This document shows, in pieces, positions 8,792 to 62,250 of a stretch of DNA of 64,000 nucleotides; position 1 is the stretch's first letter, and every line of letters starts with the position of its first letter. The stretch spans positions 1,546-65,545 of the forward strand of contig JAPLCW010000185.1 in the NCBI GenBank assembly GCA_026392015.1, written 5' to 3'. The notes below the pieces were generated by a model. The model did not search any database. It was not told where the DNA came from and saw only the letters and a program-made list of their open reading frames with translations. Source of the DNA: Candidatus Auribacterota bacterium (GTDB lineage Bacteria; Auribacterota; Tritonobacteria; UBA1439). A program made the position numbers and the translations under genes.

Positions 8792-9020
8792 ACATATTCT
8801 TATATCGATAACTCAAAAGCTCTATTATCTTGATGTTGTATGACTTAATCACCCAATCACCCAATCGCCTAATCACTGCTTTTGAATAGCTTGATAGCTA
8901 AATTGCTCTCCCCCCCCTCCCACAATTGACTCACGTGAGATAATCCGTGTCCATCCGTGTTCATCCGTGGTTTGTATTCCCCTGTGTAACTGAGGCTTTA
9001 TGCGCTGCCCGATTCTCGGC

Positions 9021-38371: not shown

Positions 38372-38685
38372 AAAGAATGTAACCGCGGATTACGCGGATT
38401 GGAAAAGATGAAGGGATAGTAACCACTGATGAACAGGGATGGGCACGGCAGCTTAAAGTTGAGCAAGGAGTTTTGGGGCTTTTAATAGCAGGTCTTCTGG
38501 AGTTGTTTGAATCCGCATAATCAGCAAAATCCGCGGTTAAAAAGTGATTAAAGAGTTCTAACCGCGGATTACGCGGATTGCGCGGATTGAAAAAGATGAA
38601 GGGATAGTAAACATCGATGAACAGGGATGGGCACGGTTAAGAGGTTTCTCAGTGTTAATCCGTGTTTATCTGTTGTTGTAGTGAA

Positions 38686-38943
38686 ATTTAATCAGGCTTC
38701 GCAATTGTGGGAGGGGGGGAAAAGCAATTTAGCTATCGAGCTATCAAGCTATCAAAATAAGAGCATACTGTGGGAGGGGCGTCCTCGCCCCGATCGTCAT
38801 TGTTGGAGGGCTTTCTGGGCTCGATCGCGGCTGAAAGCCGCTCCCCAATTTATTTAAATTCCCAGGTATTTAACGCGTGTATCTGCGTGCTCTGCGTTCA
38901 TCTGCGTCCTGAACAGCAGTTAATGTTTGGACGTGGATAGCGC
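38686..38943. repeat. ~255-bp composite repeat, inverted copy at 45471-45720
   Basis: Contains gctatcga/gctatcaa octamers, a GTGG REP doublet and an ATCTGCGT arm; nearly identical to the reverse complement of 45471-45720. Confidence 0.9.
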
Positions 38944-39042
38944 TGATTGGGCGGATTAGAAAAGGCTGAATCACTGAGGACTCTGAGATATTGTTTCAGA
39001 ATCTTCAGTGTTCTCAGATGAATAGATCGGGCTAGCATACTA

Positions 39043-45470: not shown

Positions 45471-45720
45471 CGCGATATCCGCGTCCAAACATTAACTGCT
45501 GTTCGGGACGCAGATGAACGCAGATACACGCGTTAAATACCTGGGAATTTAAATAAATTGGGGAGCGGCTTTCAGCCGCGATCGAGCCCAGAAAGCCCTC
45601 CAACAATGACGATCGGGGCGAGGACGCCCCTCCCACAGTATGCTCTTATTTTGATAGATTGATAGCTCGATAGCTAAATTGCTTTCCCCCCCCTCCCACA
45701 ATTGAGAAGCCGGATTGAAA
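45471..45720. repeat. Inverted copy of 38686-38943 composite repeat
   Basis: Direct sequence comparison. Confidence 0.9.
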
Positions 45721-54052: not shown

Positions 54053-54225
54053 AGCGATTAGGCGATTGGGCGATTAGGTTAAAACGGTAAGCACACAATC
54101 GCTTAATCGCTCAATCGCCTAATCGCTCAAAGAATCTCGCGCCCGGGTTTGATCGTTCGGCTGAGTTTATACTGAGCGCAGCCGAAGTACCCAGGACAAG
54201 TTCATCGGACCCCTACAAATCAACG
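54053..54225. repeat. 8-nt periodic GCGATT element followed by GTAG REP copy
   Basis: gcgattaggcgattgggcgattag...caatcgcttaatcgctcaatcgcc; 54140-54225 is an inverted homologue of 35656-35741. Confidence 0.75.
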
Positions 54226-55433: not shown

Positions 55434-55613
55434 TGTATACAAAGTATACACTTTTGGCTCTCAGAGGTGTAAACAAAGTATGCAAATTGGACTTTTTTAG
55501 AATACATCGAGAATTTTCATGTTTGCGATCATCGCTGCAACTGATTCGGCGCGTGCTCATTACGACTGTTTTTATTTTTTTTTATAAACTGCAAGTTTGG
55601 CATAGAAATTGCT
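55434..55613 (+). promoter_or_regulatory. sigma54 promoter with tandem enhancer-like sites (copy 1)
   Basis: TGTATACAAAGTATACA (55434-50), TGTAAACAAAGTATGCA (55468-84); TGGCATAGAAATTGCT, GG-N10-GC (55598-613). Confidence 0.75.
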
Positions 55614-55946: not shown

Positions 55947-57038
55947 ATGAGAGCAACATTAGCGGTGGTTGTAAGCGTGATGATTGCGGCGAGTTTGTAC
56001 GGCACGGTGGTTGCGGGGAACCTGGATTCCGCCGGCGCACCATCAGGGGGAAGCGGGATGTATTCACTCTCACAGATCTATGATTACCTGAACTCGGGGA
56101 TAAAGGCAACACCTGTCCCCAGTTTCCAGGGACCAGGTGCAGCCCCCGGCTCGACGATGAAGACCACGAGGGAGATTTACGAGAGCATCGAGGCGAAGCA
56201 CAACCAGTGCAATGTGACCGCTGCCCATGTTGAGGCAGGCTGGATGTTCTTCTGCACACAATCGGGAAGCTGGGGGGTGCAGACAGGGACATTAGTTGTA
56301 CCGCCAACCCCAACACCAACCATAACCCCAACCCCATCCCCATCCTCAACCGCAACATGGTCGTTAAACGCAGCCGGCTGCAACGCCACTACCGGCTGGC
56401 ATTGGTACACAACCAACGGCCGCAGTGCCTGCTGGAGCAAGACCCTCGCCGATTCAGTTTCCTGGAATAAGGGGGTGGGGAATGATAGCAGAAAGACTGG
56501 TTCCTATACCTGCACCTCCCTTGTAACATACGACCTAAAGACCCGTATGGAGGCAGCTGTTAATCAGGATTGGACCAAGATTATAACTAGTGCTGGTGAT
56601 TTAAGTGCTTTGGCCATTGCAGATTGTATAGATGGCACAAAGGATCTAGTTGACTGTTCAACTAGTGTCTGCACTGGTTGGTCAAGCACCAACACCTGGC
56701 TCAGAGACTGGGCCGGAGCAGCAGGCAAATCAGCCCTGCCGTATCTGGGTGATGATGCCGGCACTATAAATGACTACAATACTGCCTGCGCGAGTAGTTC
56801 CAATGACCTGCCTTTAGCTTGTGCTACGCCTAACGCATTCTATCTGAATCGCAAAGCCTGTAGCGATGGCGATACAAACTACAGCTGGGCTGCCGCCTGT
56901 GGCTACTCCAGCGGCGATGGCTGGTCCACGATCGCGCGGCTACTGGGCTACTATTCCTGCTCCTCCCAGGACTACAACGACACGTCGGGCACGAGCGGCA
57001 ACCTAGCATTTCGCGTAGTTGCGCGGCCAGCGGAATGA
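55947..57038 (+). CDS. Secreted modular protein: shared N-domain, Pro/Thr linker, Cys/Trp-rich C-domain with CLec-like terminus
   Basis: SD aaggag; signal peptide; GNLDSAGAPSGGSGMYSL...FFCTQSGSWGVQTGTL; PTPTPTITPTP; ends LAFRVVARP. Confidence 0.85.
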   Translation: MRATLAVVVSVMIAASLYGTVVAGNLDSAGAPSGGSGMYSLSQIYDYLNSGIKATPVPSFQGPGAAPGSTMKTTREIYESIEAKHNQCNVTAAHVEAGWMFFCTQSGSWGVQTGTLVVPPTPTPTITPTPSPSSTATWSLNAAGCNATTGWHWYTTNGRSACWSKTLADSVSWNKGVGNDSRKTGSYTCTSLVTYDLKTRMEAAVNQDWTKIITSAGDLSALAIADCIDGTKDLVDCSTSVCTGWSSTNTWLRDWAGAAGKSALPYLGDDAGTINDYNTACASSSNDLPLACATPNAFYLNRKACSDGDTNYSWAAACGYSSGDGWSTIARLLGYYSCSSQDYNDTSGTSGNLAFRVVARPAE

Positions 57039-57052
57039 TTTGGTTATTTGAT

Positions 57053-57088
57053 GATTTGGAAGCCGGGGTTTTTCCCGGCTTCCAAATC
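57053..57088. other. Perfect 15-bp hairpin without U-tract (terminator or DGR-type cruciform)
   Basis: gatttggaagccggg-gttttt-cccggcttccaaatc, 14 nt after the stop codon. Confidence 0.7.
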
Positions 57089-57106
57089 GGAAATCTTTTC
57101 TGAAAA

Positions 57107-57247
57107 ATGATTACACTACACAGAAGAGAAATTTTTTATCTAATTGAAGGAGAGGACGCGAAACGATTGGCGCGGCCCCTTGGCTTGAAGCTGGTTGAGA
57201 AAAAGGTCGTTTCTCCGGGAGGCGAGGAGGACGCACAGAATAAATGA
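57107..57247 (+). CDS. 46-aa ORF resembling the start of MutS domain I (possible remnant)
   Basis: MITLHRREIFYLIEGEDAKRLARPLGLKLV resembles the FYE.F.EDA..AA..LGL.L pattern; below the ORF-track length cutoff. Confidence 0.4.
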   Translation: MITLHRREIFYLIEGEDAKRLARPLGLKLVEKKVVSPGGEEDAQNK

Positions 57248-57617
57248 CGAAACCCGAAATCCGAAATCCAAATCAATGACGAAACCAGAATGAGGAATGA
57301 CGGTTGGGAGAAAGCGTAACAGTAATTTCCAGCGGAGAAGAAAAGCTTGTAACGGGACGACGCGGCGATCCACCATTAAACGATGATTGCTTCGTCCCGC
57401 GTAGTGGGACTCGCATTGAAAATCTTTCATTATCCGCTATTTAGGAAGTTCGGAATTGAGCCATTTTTTGTTGCTCGAACAGGCTCCTTTCTATCCTACT
57501 ATTTCTGGCTCAATGGAAATATCCCATCCTTCCCTGGCCCCTTCTTTCAGGTGCCTGTAGAGGAGTTATTTCTATCTTGTCATCTGAGGAACATTACCAT
57601 TCTTGTATGACAAGAGT

Positions 57618-57799
57618 TGTAAACAAAGTATAAACTTTTGGCTCTCAGAGGTGTAAACAAAGTATGCAAATCCGACATTTCTAGAATCCACCGAGAATTT
57701 TCACCTTTGCAATCATCGTTCCAAGTGTTTGGTCTGGTACTCATTACAACTATTTTTCACTAATGAAGGAAAGATTGTTAAGTTGGCGCGGAAAATGCA
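57618..57799 (+). promoter_or_regulatory. sigma54 promoter with tandem enhancer-like sites (copy 2)
   Basis: TGTAAACAAAGTATAAA (57618-34), TGTAAACAAAGTATGCA (57652-68); TGGCGCGGAAAATGCA, GG-N10-GC (57784-99). Confidence 0.75.
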
Positions 57800-57823
57800 G
57801 GCTAATTACTTGTGGTTTTGTGA

Positions 57824-58684
57824 ATGTGCATCGATTGTATCACTCCTGCGGAAAGAATTATGACTCTCATTATCATTGCCTTGGCGCTCTTCGCAGCCTC
57901 CTTCGCTGATGCCGTACCCGCCAATTCTCCTTTTCCTCAATGCTATAATTTCCCATTCCCCTCCGACTTGGGGAAAAACGACTACCTCCAGCACCCATGC
58001 ATGGCCCCGGCGAAGATCGGTAGGATCCTTGAAGGCAACAACTTGATCTGGGGGGAGAGCATAGGATGGATCAATCTCGGGGCGACGCACGCCGAGGTGA
58101 AGATCGGCTCAAACATATTGGCGGGTTGGATCTGGTTGGAAAACTGCGGCTGGGTGTGCCTCGGCAACGGGCATCCTCTGGATGCGAGGCGCTACTCCAA
58201 CCGTGGCTCCTGTGACTGGGGAGTCAACAACGATGGTCGGGGCAAGTTGTCCGGTTTTGCCTGGTCTGAAGTCACGGGCTGGATCAGTTTCCGCACCGGT
58301 CATTCGTGTGTATGCCTGGATGAGAGCGGCCAGTTTTGCGGCTATGCGTGGGGAGAGAATGCAGGGTGGATGCATTTCGGGCCTGGCAGCACAGCGCAAT
58401 ATCTTGCGAAGGCGGATCCCGGGCCGTGGAGAGATATCGGGCCGGAACCGGGAGGGAGACTCGCCGGGAGGCAAAATGATTCTGAAATAAGCAGTGGCTC
58501 TGTCCCCGTCACAGGCCTGAATAACAATTATGAGAGATACAACAAGGATATCCGGACAGTCTGTCCGCTCAGGCTGGGAAAAGATGATTCCCATGCGGCT
58601 ATTCGGTGTTGCGATACGCCGATTTATATAAGCAGTCTTGCCAAACTTTCTCCCATTCGCGCTCCTCCGCGTTGCGGGTATTAG
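57824..58684 (+). CDS. Exported G-x-A-W-x-E-x-x-G-W repeat protein ending in RAPP
   Basis: Four repeats (IWGESIGWI, IWLENCGWV, AWSEVTGWI, AWGENAGWM); signal peptide from ATG 57860; tail SPIRAPPRCGY. Confidence 0.75.
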   Translation: MCIDCITPAERIMTLIIIALALFAASFADAVPANSPFPQCYNFPFPSDLGKNDYLQHPCMAPAKIGRILEGNNLIWGESIGWINLGATHAEVKIGSNILAGWIWLENCGWVCLGNGHPLDARRYSNRGSCDWGVNNDGRGKLSGFAWSEVTGWISFRTGHSCVCLDESGQFCGYAWGENAGWMHFGPGSTAQYLAKADPGPWRDIGPEPGGRLAGRQNDSEISSGSVPVTGLNNNYERYNKDIRTVCPLRLGKDDSHAAIRCCDTPIYISSLAKLSPIRAPPRCGY

Positions 58685-58774
58685 CCATAGTTTCATTGCG
58701 AGTCCCACGAAGTGGGGCGTGAAAATCTCACCTTTATCAACTTCAAGATGAATCAAGAAAGGATTGGTGTCAAA

Positions 58775-59560
58775 ATGAGAAATTTAATCGCAGCAGCTCT
58801 GAGTTTAATGTTGATGGTTGGCCTGTCATGCGTGGCTATTGCGGGGAGTCTTGACTCCCCCGGTGCCCCTTCCGCGGGGAGCGGGATGTACACGCTCCAG
58901 AACCTGTACGACTACCTGACAAGCGGAACGGAGCTCACGGTGCAGACCGGCTTCCAGGAGCCCACGTCAGGCCCCACCGCTGGCACCATGAAGACGACAA
59001 AGAAGATCGGGGATGATGTGAAATCCTTATTTGACCTGTGCGCAATCACGACTGCCGCAAATGTTGAATCGGGAATGCCATTCTTCTGCACGCAGCCGGG
59101 AAGCTGGGGAGTTCAGACGGGAACATTAAGCGTGCTGCCGAGACCGACAGCAACCCCAACCATAACCCCAACCCCAACCATAACCCCAACCCCAACACCA
59201 ACGGGTACGCCGTCGCATGCTTGGTGCGTGGCGCTCGGCGGATGGTGGGGACCCGACGGCCTGGGGGGGTCGGGATGTTGGTTTGGGGCGGATAGGTGGC
59301 CGTCAGGCACGTTTGTTTCGTGCGATACAATTTGTTCGGAACATGGCGCGTTAACCTGTGATTCCAGGAACTGGAATGACACTAATTGCCAGTACTGCCT
59401 CTCCCAGCATCCCACGTTCTCTTGCAACTCCCCTTGCGGAGGTACGGTTCCACTAATGGACAACAGATCCGAGTACTGTGGACAAAGGGCAGAGGGTTGC
59501 AACCAAAATTGCAGTCAGACTTCAAACAACGACCTGCGTTTGTGCCTTTGCAAGCAGTAG
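58775..59560 (+). CDS. Secreted modular paralogue of 55947 with a different Cys-rich C-domain
   Basis: SD aaagga; GSLDSPGAPSAGSGMYTL...FFCTQPGSWGVQTGTL; (PT)n linker; many Cys in tail. Confidence 0.85.
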   Translation: MRNLIAAALSLMLMVGLSCVAIAGSLDSPGAPSAGSGMYTLQNLYDYLTSGTELTVQTGFQEPTSGPTAGTMKTTKKIGDDVKSLFDLCAITTAANVESGMPFFCTQPGSWGVQTGTLSVLPRPTATPTITPTPTITPTPTPTGTPSHAWCVALGGWWGPDGLGGSGCWFGADRWPSGTFVSCDTICSEHGALTCDSRNWNDTNCQYCLSQHPTFSCNSPCGGTVPLMDNRSEYCGQRAEGCNQNCSQTSNNDLRLCLCKQ

Positions 59561-59591: not shown

Positions 59592-59631
59592 AGCGGCAGG
59601 GAGTTTGTTGTTCGCATTGCTCCCTGCCGCT
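59592..59631 (+). terminator. 12-bp hairpin downstream of 58775 gene
   Basis: agcggcagggag...ctccctgccgct; no clear U-tract. Confidence 0.45.
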
Positions 59632-59893
59632 GGCGGAGATAACTCCGAATCTTCGTGTAAGAAGATCCTTGCTCTTTAAGCCGGAGTAACTTCATTTTCA
59701 TCTGACGAATGGATCCGGATGAAATCCCGATGATTCATCCAGATATAATGTCCGTTCGCCAGAAGACCGGGAGTTCCATGCGATGCCGCATGGCGTCGTG
59801 TCCGTTCCTAACGCTGTCTACGGTATGCAGGGCGGCCGGCGGGCGGGGATGAATGGCAACGCCGGCTTCCATCGGCGGGGAGTATGCTTTTTA

Positions 59894-61960: not shown

Positions 61961-62250
61961 ACGCAGCAATGCAATTTCGGCATGCACCCTCTACACGTAA
62001 TCCGCAAGTTTCAAAACCAAAAACAAATCTCCAGTGCCCAGCCTTTTCTAGCGATTGAGCGATTAGGGACTGGGCGATTGGGTTAAACCATTGAACACCT
62101 AATCGCTTAATCGCCCGGTTGCCCAATCGCTATTTGTGTTTTGGATTATTAAATTTGGTTTTTGGGCTTATTTTGAAATTTGATCTTTGAATTTTGGATT
62201 TTTACCTGTGGGGAACGCAGCAGAGAGGTGTTTATCCGCCATCTCTGGTC

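What the first reader, a model, noticed from the sequence alone, without database searches (positions are those of the whole stretch)
56880..57247. Possible orphan DGR target: VR-like 3' end, perfect hairpin and MutS-I-like mini-ORF
Seen: the gene ends ..WAAAC...ARLLG...LAFRVVARP, like the CLec-fold GFR terminus. 24 of the 34 codons from 56901 end in C/T and many encode Y/S/G/D/N. A perfect 15-bp hairpin without U-tract follows 14 nt after the stop, then a 46-aa MutS-domain-I-like ORF. Known: DGR variable regions derive from AAY-rich templates, lie at target 3' ends, are followed by a hairpin, and some DGRs carry MutS-like accessory genes. No RT, Avd or TR is visible in this window. Inference: a remote target diversified in trans, or a captured DGR fragment fused to the host display domain.
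Basis: partly seen in the sequence, partly recalled or inferred. Interest (0 to 1): 0.75.

Follow-up and report, generated by a model that had tools for sequence, protein, structure and literature searches.

The report
Orphaned DGR target with cassette remnants
The end of this secreted-protein gene is a hypervariable region of the kind written by a diversity-generating retroelement, but the template and enzyme that would rewrite it were not found in this genome.

Summary
Gene 55947-57038 ends in a C-type-lectin-fold domain (model pLDDT 96.5). The best structural matches include the DGR targets TvpA and Mtd. Its last ~50 codons carry a DGR signature. Across 18-19 paralogous copies in the genome, third codon positions are the most conserved. 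Conserved nucleotides are almost free of adenine (3 of 83, against 51 of 210 upstream). pN/pS is 1.09, against 0.45 upstream.

A genome of another family in the same phylum (G047) keeps the homologous cassette. It has a VR with the same 3' flank and hairpin, a MutS-domain-I-like ORF, an Asn-codon-rich template repeat (24 of 35 TR-VR mismatches lie at TR adenines) and Avd. The window's 46-aa mini-ORF is the decayed homologue of that MutS-like gene.

No template repeat, cognate Avd or DGR-type reverse transcriptase was found in the 94%-complete assembly. The locus is therefore an incomplete cassette. I judge it more likely a relic than a target still rewritten in trans, but this is unresolved.

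It is a new member of a known kind (a MutS-like-accessory DGR with many targets). The scale is notable: 20 VR-bearing paralogues sit inside a ~220-member secreted-protein family.

The parts
55947..57038 (+). Target gene, 363 aa. It has a signal-peptide-like N terminus, a conserved family domain, a Pro/Thr linker and a C-terminal CLec-fold domain.
   Evidence: ORF. The first 135 aa have 228 tblastn hits on 89 contigs of the same genome. No Pfam, NCBIfam or PHROG family matched.
56361..57035 (+). C-type-lectin-like (CLec) fold domain, 225 aa as modelled
   Evidence: AlphaFold2 on a 71-sequence alignment gave pLDDT 96.5 and pTM 0.92. VIA-align matches: Bd2740 C-terminal domain Z 10.0, TvpA 2y3c Z 9.0 (154 aligned, rmsd 4.5), Lcl C-terminal domain Z 7.9, Mtd 1yu0 Z 7.6, and many C-type lectins. 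The best Foldseek match is TvpA at E 0.015; none reaches 1e-3. The genome has 20 copies.
56886..57008 (+). Variable region (mutagenised part). Boundaries are approximate, taken from where the G047 TR-VR homology begins and where the last variable codon lies.
   Evidence: NNC-type variable codons. Across the paralogues, conserved positions number 83 and only 3 are A. The window copy departs from the scaffold consensus at 3 of 83 positions. It aligns to the G047 TR with 21 of 45 TR adenines mismatched.
57009..57035 (+). G+C-rich invariant 3' end of the VR (..FRVVARPAE), in the place where an IMH would lie
   Evidence: Nearly invariant across the paralogues, third codon positions included. The G047 TR and VR are identical through the corresponding stretch and diverge just after it. 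An IMH function is inferred, not tested.
57039..57088 (+). Conserved 3' flank (57039-57052) and 15-bp hairpin (arms 57053-57067 and 57074-57088)
   Evidence: The same flank and hairpin lie behind about 9 of the 19 VR genes of this genome and one non-VR family gene, and behind the VR next to the TR in G047, where the inner stem differs. The consensus fold has 13 pairs, and 2 of them have changes on both sides.
57107..57247 (+). Remnant of a MutS-domain-I-like (MSL-type) DGR accessory gene. A 46-aa ORF remains, and decayed homology runs on to about 57350.
   Evidence: DNA 57122-57231 is 73.6% identical to the G047 spacer between VR and TR (E 1.5e-11). Protein identity is 60% over 45 aa (E 5e-12), and this is the only such copy in the genome. 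The G047 homologue passes Pfam MutS_I.
57560..57823 (.). Repeated upstream element of the next gene. It is context, not part of the cassette.
   Evidence: About 98 blastn hits in the genome for this part of the intergenic region; 57089-57490 is single-copy.
57824..58684 (+). Neighbouring gene with a 'GW..F/GWINF'-type repeat. It is a homologue of the gene that follows Avd in the G047 cassette.
   Evidence: tblastn of the G047 protein hits C125:59594-59923 (window 58049-58378) at 44% over 114 aa, E 1e-21. The family has more than 50 copies in this genome, so the synteny is weak evidence.

Best explanation
The 3' end of gene 55947-57038 is a genuine DGR variable region. It lies in the ligand-binding C-terminal part of a C-type-lectin-fold domain of a secreted or surface protein.

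Inferred mechanism: an RNA copy of a template repeat rich in AAC/AAT codons was reverse-transcribed with random misincorporation opposite adenines. The cDNA then replaced the VR. It was guided by the invariant G+C-rich VR end and the flank and hairpin just behind the stop. This rewrote about 20 codons while resetting all non-adenine positions.

The locus is what remains of a cassette of the MutS-like-accessory type: target, VR, hairpin and a decayed MutS-like gene. The TR-Avd segment that follows in the homologous G047 cassette is missing here. About 19 other paralogues in the genome carry VRs made from the same or a very similar template.

Shown: the fold, the substitution pattern, the homology to a cassette with a true TR, and the decay of the accessory gene. 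Inferred: the retrohoming steps themselves. My leaning is that this locus is now an orphaned relic that is no longer rewritten, because no TR, cognate Avd or DGR-clade RT is in the assembly.
For: Fold. The model has pLDDT 96.5. The DGR targets TvpA (Z 9.0) and Mtd (Z 7.6) are among a list dominated by C-type-lectin-like domains.

Substitution pattern, measured on 18 paralogues.
- In the VR, third codon positions are the most conserved (31 conserved, 19 variable). Upstream they are the least conserved (35 conserved, 119 variable).
- Conserved nucleotides that are A: 3 of 83 in the VR against 51 of 210 upstream (Fisher p 8.8e-6). Variable sites have near-even base use.
- Over 153 pairs, mean pS falls from 0.70 upstream to 0.50 in the VR, while pN rises from 0.32 to 0.48. 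The mean ratio is 1.09 against 0.45.
- Six copies, the window's among them, differ from the scaffold consensus at no more than 4 of about 83 positions.

Homologous cassette in G047. It has a VR with the same flank and hairpin, a MutS_I-like ORF, a TR that translates Asn-rich, and an Avd. TR-VR mismatches: 24 at 43 TR adenines, 11 at 124 other bases.

The mini-ORF is homologous to the G047 MutS-like ORF.

MutS-like (MSL) accessory genes occur in 16 of 372 curated DGRs, always with avd (PMC5758913, passages read).

For the relic reading.
- The MSL remnant is cut to 46 aa with stops beyond it.
- No A-rich copy exists among the VR copies.
- The RVT_1 profile finds only one sub-threshold fragment in the genome.
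- The best match to the G047 Avd is 31% over 42 aa.
- 13 of 19 copies have 7-26 scaffold mismatches.
- One contig of the likely source run crosses the whole VR (56442-57059) without a difference.
Against: - No TR or DGR-clade RT was found in this genome, so the adenine rule could only be tested indirectly here and directly in G047.
- G047 lacks a DGR-type RT in its 87%-complete bin. Its TR-VR pair has 11 non-adenine mismatches, and its MutS-like ORF has an in-frame TAA. That cassette may therefore be decaying too.
- The adenine depletion at conserved sites sits at codon positions 1-2. No conserved third position is A in either region (0 of 31 and 0 of 35). It therefore partly reflects which amino acids are conserved.
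- Three homologous domains in other lineages had no RT within 10 kb (0 of 3 loci).
- Against 'relic' in particular: the assembly is 94.4% complete and broken into 216 contigs at the family's repeats, so a cassette could be unassembled. Six near-consensus scaffolds, and a VR pS below the upstream pS, also say that homing went on long after the paralogues split.
Confidence: 0.55

Rival explanations
1. The VR is still being diversified in trans. An intact TR-Avd-RT cassette would lie on DNA of this organism, or of a phage or plasmid of it, that was not assembled or binned. It would service this VR and the other near-consensus VRs through their shared 3' ends.
For: - Six VRs lie within 4 of about 83 scaffold positions of one consensus, although synonymous divergence upstream is 0.4-0.7.
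- The flank and hairpin are kept at about 90% identity at about 9 loci.
- The assembly has 216 contigs, many ending in family repeats.
- Trans diversification of incomplete loci is reported for Thiohalocapsa PB-PSB1 (PMC10907252, passages read). Remote targets are known, with up to seven for the Treponema DGR (PMC5758913).
Against: - No TR, cognate Avd or DGR-clade RT was found in 3.85 Mb at 94.4% completeness.
- The only MSL copy is decayed.
- A contig of the likely source run spans the VR with no difference. This is weak, because such contigs drop minor variants.
- Nothing related was found in viral contigs.
Confidence: 0.3
2. There is no retroelement. The paralogues' C-terminal loops are hypervariable through ordinary mutation under diversifying selection. 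Gene conversion between copies keeps the framework and flank alike, and the G/S/N/D/Y-rich composition produces the C-ending codons.
For: - Homologous domains in other lineages also have G/S/N/D/Y-rich loops with ordinary synonymous divergence and no RT nearby.
- The adenine depletion at conserved sites is confined to codon positions 1-2.
- Y-ending codons in the window gene alone are not significant (p 0.14).
Against: - Gene conversion would homogenise the variable columns too. Instead, the columns split into nearly invariant ones and fully randomised ones.
- Third positions are more conserved than first and second positions only in this stretch.
- G047 has a non-coding, Asn-codon-rich copy of exactly this stretch next to an Avd, and the differences are mostly at its adenines.
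- A MutS-like DGR accessory remnant sits behind the hairpin.
Confidence: 0.07
3. The family is or was serviced by a non-DGR-clade enzyme. This would be the UG4-like reverse transcriptase whose decayed 3' ends lie tail-to-tail behind many family genes. It would have acted as the mutagenic enzyme or as a retro-duplication engine for the family.
For: - 56 RT relics are found at E <= 1e-3, and 53 of them face the 3' end of a family gene within 2.2 kb.
- At six VR loci the relic abuts the hairpin.
- The longest relic best matches PADLOC RT_UG4 (87 bits, against 42 for the generic RT model). A canonical DGR RT of the same phylum prefers the generic model (165 against 109).
- UG4 RTs are associated with fimbrial genes in 66% of instances, and their function is unknown (PMC8934634, PMC9226505, passages read).
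Against: - All copies are pseudogenes. The catalytic box reads FCDY in the one copy that keeps it.
- Most relics begin at the same point (median query position 98). They were therefore copied as DNA along with the genes, not made by repeated truncated reverse transcription.
- Relics also follow family genes without a VR.
- The G047 cassette has no such relic.
- BLASTP similarity of the relic to any RT is only generic (best E 4e-5).
Confidence: 0.05

Closest known systems
DGRs with a MutS-like (MSL) accessory gene, 'Architecture D' of Wu et al. 2018 (PMC5758913), to which that paper assigns the Legionella DGR
   Same: - The VR lies at the 3' end of a CLec-fold target.
- The G047 relative carries both an Avd and a small MutS-domain-I-like ORF in the cassette.
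- Template codons are of the AAC/AAT type.
   Different: - In the window only the target, VR, hairpin and a 46-aa MSL remnant survive.
- No TR, Avd or RT is present at the locus or in the assembly.
- The MSL-like ORF is far shorter than the 112-283 aa reported. Even in G047 it is 64 aa up to a TAA, or about 94 aa read through.
- The RT partner of this lineage was not found in either genome.
Treponema denticola TvpA (PDB 2y3c) and its DGR with remote targets
   Same: - It is the second-best structural match (Z 9.0, 154 residues aligned).
- The target is a surface protein.
- Several targets are scattered in the genome and share one template.
   Different: - Sequence identity is 13%, and no FGE-sulfatase Pfam match exists.
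- About 20 VR-bearing paralogues are present, against seven non-adjacent targets cited for Treponema.
- The Treponema cassette carries HRDC, not MSL.
Incomplete DGR loci and trans-diversified targets of Thiohalocapsa PB-PSB1 (PMC10907252)
   Same: - One genome holds many CLec targets.
- Some loci lack an RT or TR.
- Duplication and domain shuffling are evident.
   Different: - In that genome RTs and TRs are present and diversification was observed in metagenomes. Here neither could be shown.
- Targets here are secreted proteins of a ~220-member family, not NTPase or conflict-system sensors.
Bordetella phage BPP-1 Mtd with IMH and target hairpin
   Same: - The fold is CLec (Mtd Z 7.6).
- The VR lies at the C terminus, and its 3' end is G+C-rich and invariant.
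- A hairpin follows shortly behind it. That a hairpin aids target recognition in BPP-1 is recalled knowledge, not read here.
   Different: - The stem is 15 bp with a 6-nt loop and starts 14 nt after the stop.
- The context is cellular, not phage.
- The function of the hairpin is untested.

Membership tests
DGR target gene / variable region | The VR lies in a C-type-lectin-like (or Ig-like) fold, usually at the C terminus | tested here: met
   Model pLDDT 96.5. CLec-type matches include TvpA (Z 9.0) and Mtd (Z 7.6). The Foldseek top hit is TvpA at E 0.015 only.
DGR target gene / variable region | Differences from the template are confined to template adenines, and other positions are identical | tested here: inconclusive
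   No template was found in this genome. Indirect evidence: 3 of 83 conserved VR positions are A against 51 of 210 upstream, and the codon-position conservation is inverted. In G047 the TR-VR pair has 24 mismatches at 43 adenines and 11 at 124 other bases. The window VR against the G047 TR has 21 of 45 adenines and 21 of 119 other bases mismatched.
DGR target gene / variable region | A conserved 3' recognition element (IMH) with a hairpin downstream | tested here: met
   The invariant G+C-rich end, the flank and the hairpin are shared with the VR that sits beside the TR in G047 and with about 9 copies in this genome. The function is inferred.
Complete DGR (system) | A cognate template repeat in the same genome | tested here: inconclusive
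   An nhmmer profile of the VR finds only coding copies, and none is A-rich at the variable sites. The G047 TR hits only VRs. The assembly is 94.4% complete in 216 contigs, so absence is not proven.
Complete DGR (system) | A DGR-clade reverse transcriptase ([LIV]GxxxSQ motif; the motif is recalled) | tested here: inconclusive
   RVT_1 gives one hit of 28.4 bits, below the cut-off. The RT_UG4 profile, which also detects canonical DGR RTs in the phylum, finds 3 fragments only. The fragment reads ..LGYSLCP.., not ..SQ... The assembly is incomplete.
Complete DGR (system) | The accessory gene Avd beside the TR or RT | tested here: inconclusive
   The genome has nine PF05635 genes over the cut-off, none on a contig with a VR. 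The best match to the G047 Avd is 31% over 42 aa, E 0.003.
MSL (MutS-like) DGR accessory protein / Pfam MutS_I | A significant match to MutS domain I in a small ORF inside a DGR cassette | tested here: inconclusive
   The window ORF alone scores 12.6 bits against a cut-off of 20.6. Its G047 homologue scores 28.4 bits, or 39.8 read through. The homology between the two has E 5e-12. The window copy is a truncated remnant.
UG4 reverse transcriptases (for the RT relics, not the finding itself) | The best profile match is UG4, with an intact RT of about 300 aa | tested here: inconclusive
   The best PADLOC match is RT_UG4 at E 2.5e-25, covering profile positions 167-300 of 307. All copies are fragments with decayed motifs, and no intact member is present.

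The most novel reading that the evidence does not exclude
The ~220-member secreted-protein family, about a tenth of whose members carry DGR variable regions, may have been built and diversified by retroelements of two kinds. One is a canonical MutS-like-accessory DGR that wrote the 20 VRs. The other is a UG4-like reverse transcriptase whose relics sit tail-to-tail behind more than 50 family genes. If so, the UG4 class, known so far only for its unexplained association with fimbrial genes, would have a role in amplifying or varying surface-protein genes.
Probability: 0.1. Interest if true: 0.85.

Novelty: new member of a known kind. Interest (0 to 1): 0.45.

Why it matters
This case shows that an orphan DGR target can be recognised without its template or enzyme, from the substitution pattern across paralogues and from a cassette kept in a distant relative. 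It adds a lineage of MutS-like-accessory DGRs in a sparsely sampled phylum (79 genomes in the collection searched). The 20 VR-bearing genes exceed the eight adjacent and seven non-adjacent targets cited in the 2018 survey and the 15 of Thiohalocapsa. These comparisons rest only on the passages I read in those two papers. If a working cassette exists, this organism could vary a very large surface repertoire. If not, the genome records how such a system decays while its products persist. The co-located UG4-like RT relics give a lead on a reverse-transcriptase class of unknown function.

Tried and rejected
- **Read-level test.** Only Logan contigs were available, and at 80% likeness they were swamped by paralogues. 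The one contig of the likely source run that spans the VR without a difference, and the lack of listed identical contigs over the VR in three runs of another study (depth 2-4), cannot tell fixed from variable.
- **Metagenome scan with an 18-nt scaffold word.** None was VR-like by the profile, and this used the only metagenome scan.
- **Genome-collection scan with the 20-nt VR end.** It gave 17 hits, all chance.
- **Viral contigs.** The pattern gave 2 chance hits, and the domain alignment gave none.
- **RT fragment as a query.** It found nothing in genome contigs and nothing in 78 other genomes of the phylum.
- **The same-genus genome G001.** It has no VR-like DNA, and its RT is a group II intron enzyme.
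- **The domain in other lineages.** In 3 loci there was no RT within 10 kb.
- **The first structure model.** With 18 paralogues only it was poor (pLDDT 59.4) and was not used.
- **PDB sequence search with the domain profile.** No hit.
- **Mini-ORF against the genome's own MutS or any paralogue.** No significant hit.
- **Conserved third positions as a control for adenine avoidance.** Uninformative, at 0 of 31 and 0 of 35.
- **Hairpin as an intrinsic terminator.** This was considered and not favoured, because there is no T-run on either strand. It was not tested further.
- **Earlier scan notes.** There were none for this genome.
Full report
**What is at the coordinates.** The window is G000:C125:1546-65545. 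ORF 55947..57038 (+) encodes 363 aa ending ..NYSWAAACGYSSGDGWSTIARLLGYYSCSSQDYNDTSGTSGNLAFRVVARPAE. Of the 34 codons from 56901, 24 end in C/T and 22 in C. C-ending is enriched against the rest of the gene (102 of 318, p 2.6e-4), while C/T-ending alone is not (p 0.14). A perfect 15-bp hairpin has arms at 57053-67 and 57074-88 and a 6-nt loop. It starts 14 nt after the stop and has no T-run behind it. ORF 57107..57247 (46 aa) matches Pfam MutS_I at E 0.17, below the cut-off.

**The gene is one of many.** The last 250 nt plus flank have many copies in the same genome. A profile built from them finds 19 hits at E < 1e-12. All are at 3' ends of ORFs of about 350-450 aa, and none is non-coding. A profile of the whole C-terminal domain finds 20 copies in G000. 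The first 135 aa of the protein have 228 tblastn hits on 89 of 216 contigs. In 78 other genomes of the phylum the highest count is 15. The domain occurs elsewhere behind pilin-type N termini, DUF1566 or TIG domains in unnamed metagenomic proteins.

**Fold.** A model from 18 paralogues was poor (pLDDT 59.4). With 71 sequences it reached pLDDT 96.5 and pTM 0.92. An all-against-representatives structural comparison gave these matches:
- Bdellovibrio Bd2740 C-terminal domain, Z 10.0
- TvpA of Treponema, Z 9.0 (154 aligned, rmsd 4.5)
- Lcl C-terminal domain, Z 7.9
- Mtd, Z 7.6
- FGE-family proteins and dozens of C-type lectins

Only two matches reach Z 8, and the tool warns that Z under 8 can be a common arrangement. 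Foldseek's best match is TvpA at E 0.015, and none reaches 1e-3.

**Substitution pattern.** I aligned codons of 19 copies and, for the whole domain, of 18 copies (alignment A1). Two rows were left out of A1. C31's tandem stop broke my coordinate routine, and C152:27387-28082 was found later.

| Measure | VR | Upstream |
|---|---|---|
| Third codon positions, conserved / variable | 31 / 19 | 35 / 119 |
| Conserved nucleotides that are A (p 8.8e-6) | 3 of 83 | 51 of 210 |
| Mean pS over 153 pairs | 0.50 | 0.70 |
| Mean pN over 153 pairs | 0.48 | 0.32 |
| Mean pN/pS | 1.09 | 0.45 |
| Arg codons that are AGR | 8 of 66 | 33 of 84 |

With a slightly wider column range, 5 of 83 conserved VR positions are A. 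Variable sites use all four bases about evenly. Six copies, including the window's (3 of 83), are within 4 positions of the scaffold consensus, and 13 have 7-26 mismatches. One caveat applies: no conserved third position is A in either region, so the adenine depletion reflects codon positions 1-2. Framework resetting combined with randomisation of defined columns is what mutagenic retrohoming produces. Gene conversion plus selection would not produce it.

**A relative keeps the template.** Among 79 genomes of the phylum, only G000 and G047 have this domain. G047 belongs to another family and is 87% complete. On G047 contig C277 (L210, minus strand) the order is as follows:
- the target gene's end with its VR
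- the same flank (..TGATTTGGTAATTTGATAATTTGG..) and a hairpin with a different inner stem
- a MutS_I-like ORF (28.4 bits, E 2e-6; 39.8 bits read through one TAA)
- about 0.8 kb of spacer
- a 150-nt non-coding copy of the VR that translates Asn-rich
- an Avd of 113 aa
- a repeat protein homologous to the window's next gene

TR against the adjacent VR has 24 mismatches at 43 adenines and 11 at 124 other bases. A second VR lies on contig C2. The template I had inferred from the G000 paralogues agrees closely with this TR. The best G000 match of the G047 TR is the window's VR (75% over 150 nt).

**The mini-ORF.** Window 57122-57231 is 73.6% identical to the G047 spacer (E 1.5e-11). The proteins are 60% identical over 45 aa (E 5e-12), and this is the only copy in G000. 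Downstream the homology continues at the DNA level, but the window has a deletion and stops. The mini-ORF is therefore the remnant of an MSL-type accessory gene. Wu et al. 2018 describe MSL in 16 of 372 DGRs, always with avd (PMC5758913, passages read). Between this remnant and the next gene the window has no TR or Avd. Positions 57089-57490 are single-copy, and 57560-57823 is a repeated upstream element.

**What is missing.**
- RVT_1 finds one sub-threshold fragment in G000.
- The RT_UG4 profile, which also picks up canonical DGR RTs in the phylum (L022 is a textbook cassette), finds three fragments.
- Nine Avd-like genes exist, but none lies near a VR, and none is close to the G047 Avd.
- G047 also lacks a DGR-type RT. 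Its three RTs look like group II intron enzymes.
- Avd relatives of the G047 protein (52% and 46% identical) sit in canonical cassettes with a convergent DGR RT in two other lineages.

**RT relics.** The fragment at G000:C26:5638-6096 has decayed motifs (..FCDY..). Relatives of its 3' part are scattered through the genome. There are 56 at E <= 1e-3, and 53 of them face the 3' end of a family gene. Most start at the same point. The fragment is UG4-like by PADLOC, scoring 87 bits against 42 for the generic RT model. The canonical DGR RT shows the opposite preference. I treat these relics as a separate feature.

**Activity.** This could not be settled (see Tried and rejected).

**Verdict.** The finding is a real DGR variable region in an incomplete MSL-type cassette. 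My probabilities are:
- 0.55 that it is a relic;
- 0.30 that it is still served in trans;
- 0.07 that no retroelement was involved;
- 0.05 that a non-canonical RT is responsible.

It is a new member of a known kind, with moderate interest.

Noticed in passing
whole genome G000; in the window, genes 55947-57038 and 58712-59560: A giant family of secreted proteins shares an N-terminal domain (..GS.DSPGAPS.GSGMY.L..IYDYL..), followed by a Pro/Thr linker and swappable C-terminal domains. There are 228 tblastn hits on 89 contigs, in tandem arrays of up to about 14-16 genes. The other 78 genomes of the phylum have at most 15 copies.
   Followed up: partly
window about 59597-59743 (-); G000:C26:5638-6096; many other contigs: Decayed 3' ends of a UG4-like reverse transcriptase lie tail-to-tail behind family genes. 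There are 56 at E <= 1e-3, and 53 face a family gene. No intact copy exists in this genome or in 78 others of the phylum.
   Followed up: partly
window 57560-57823 and 55434-55573: An upstream element of about 260 nt is repeated before many family genes, with about 98 blastn hits. Copies 55434-55573 and 57618-57757 are 84% identical.
   Followed up: no
window 57824-58684: This gene has a 'GW..F' repeat and belongs to a second multi-copy family, with more than 50 tblastn hits in G000. A homologue follows Avd in the G047 cassette.
   Followed up: no
G000:C140:6173-7663: The gene next to one VR paralogue ends ..NAALGFRCCK. This looks like a different FGE/CLec-type terminus of the kind DGRs target. 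It was not examined.
   Followed up: no
window 8839-8877, 54056-54135, 62068-62131, 38372-38963 and others: Short 8-nt-period intergenic repeats (AATCGC.. and GCGGATT.. types) and long inverted repeats are present, for example 38687-38888 against 45518-45719, 202 nt at 98%.
   Followed up: no
L022 (G024:C25) and L021 (G040:C241): These are canonical DGR cassettes in the same phylum. L022 holds the target VR, Avd, RT and TR. L021, cut at its contig start, holds the RT and TR. Both TRs translate as ..GGSWNNNANNLPSSNRNNNNPTNENNNIGFRVASS.
   Followed up: partly
G000, nine loci (e.g. C103:7504-7821): Nine stand-alone PF05635 (Avd / 23S-rRNA-IVP-like) genes score over the cut-off. None is next to an RT or a VR.
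   Followed up: no
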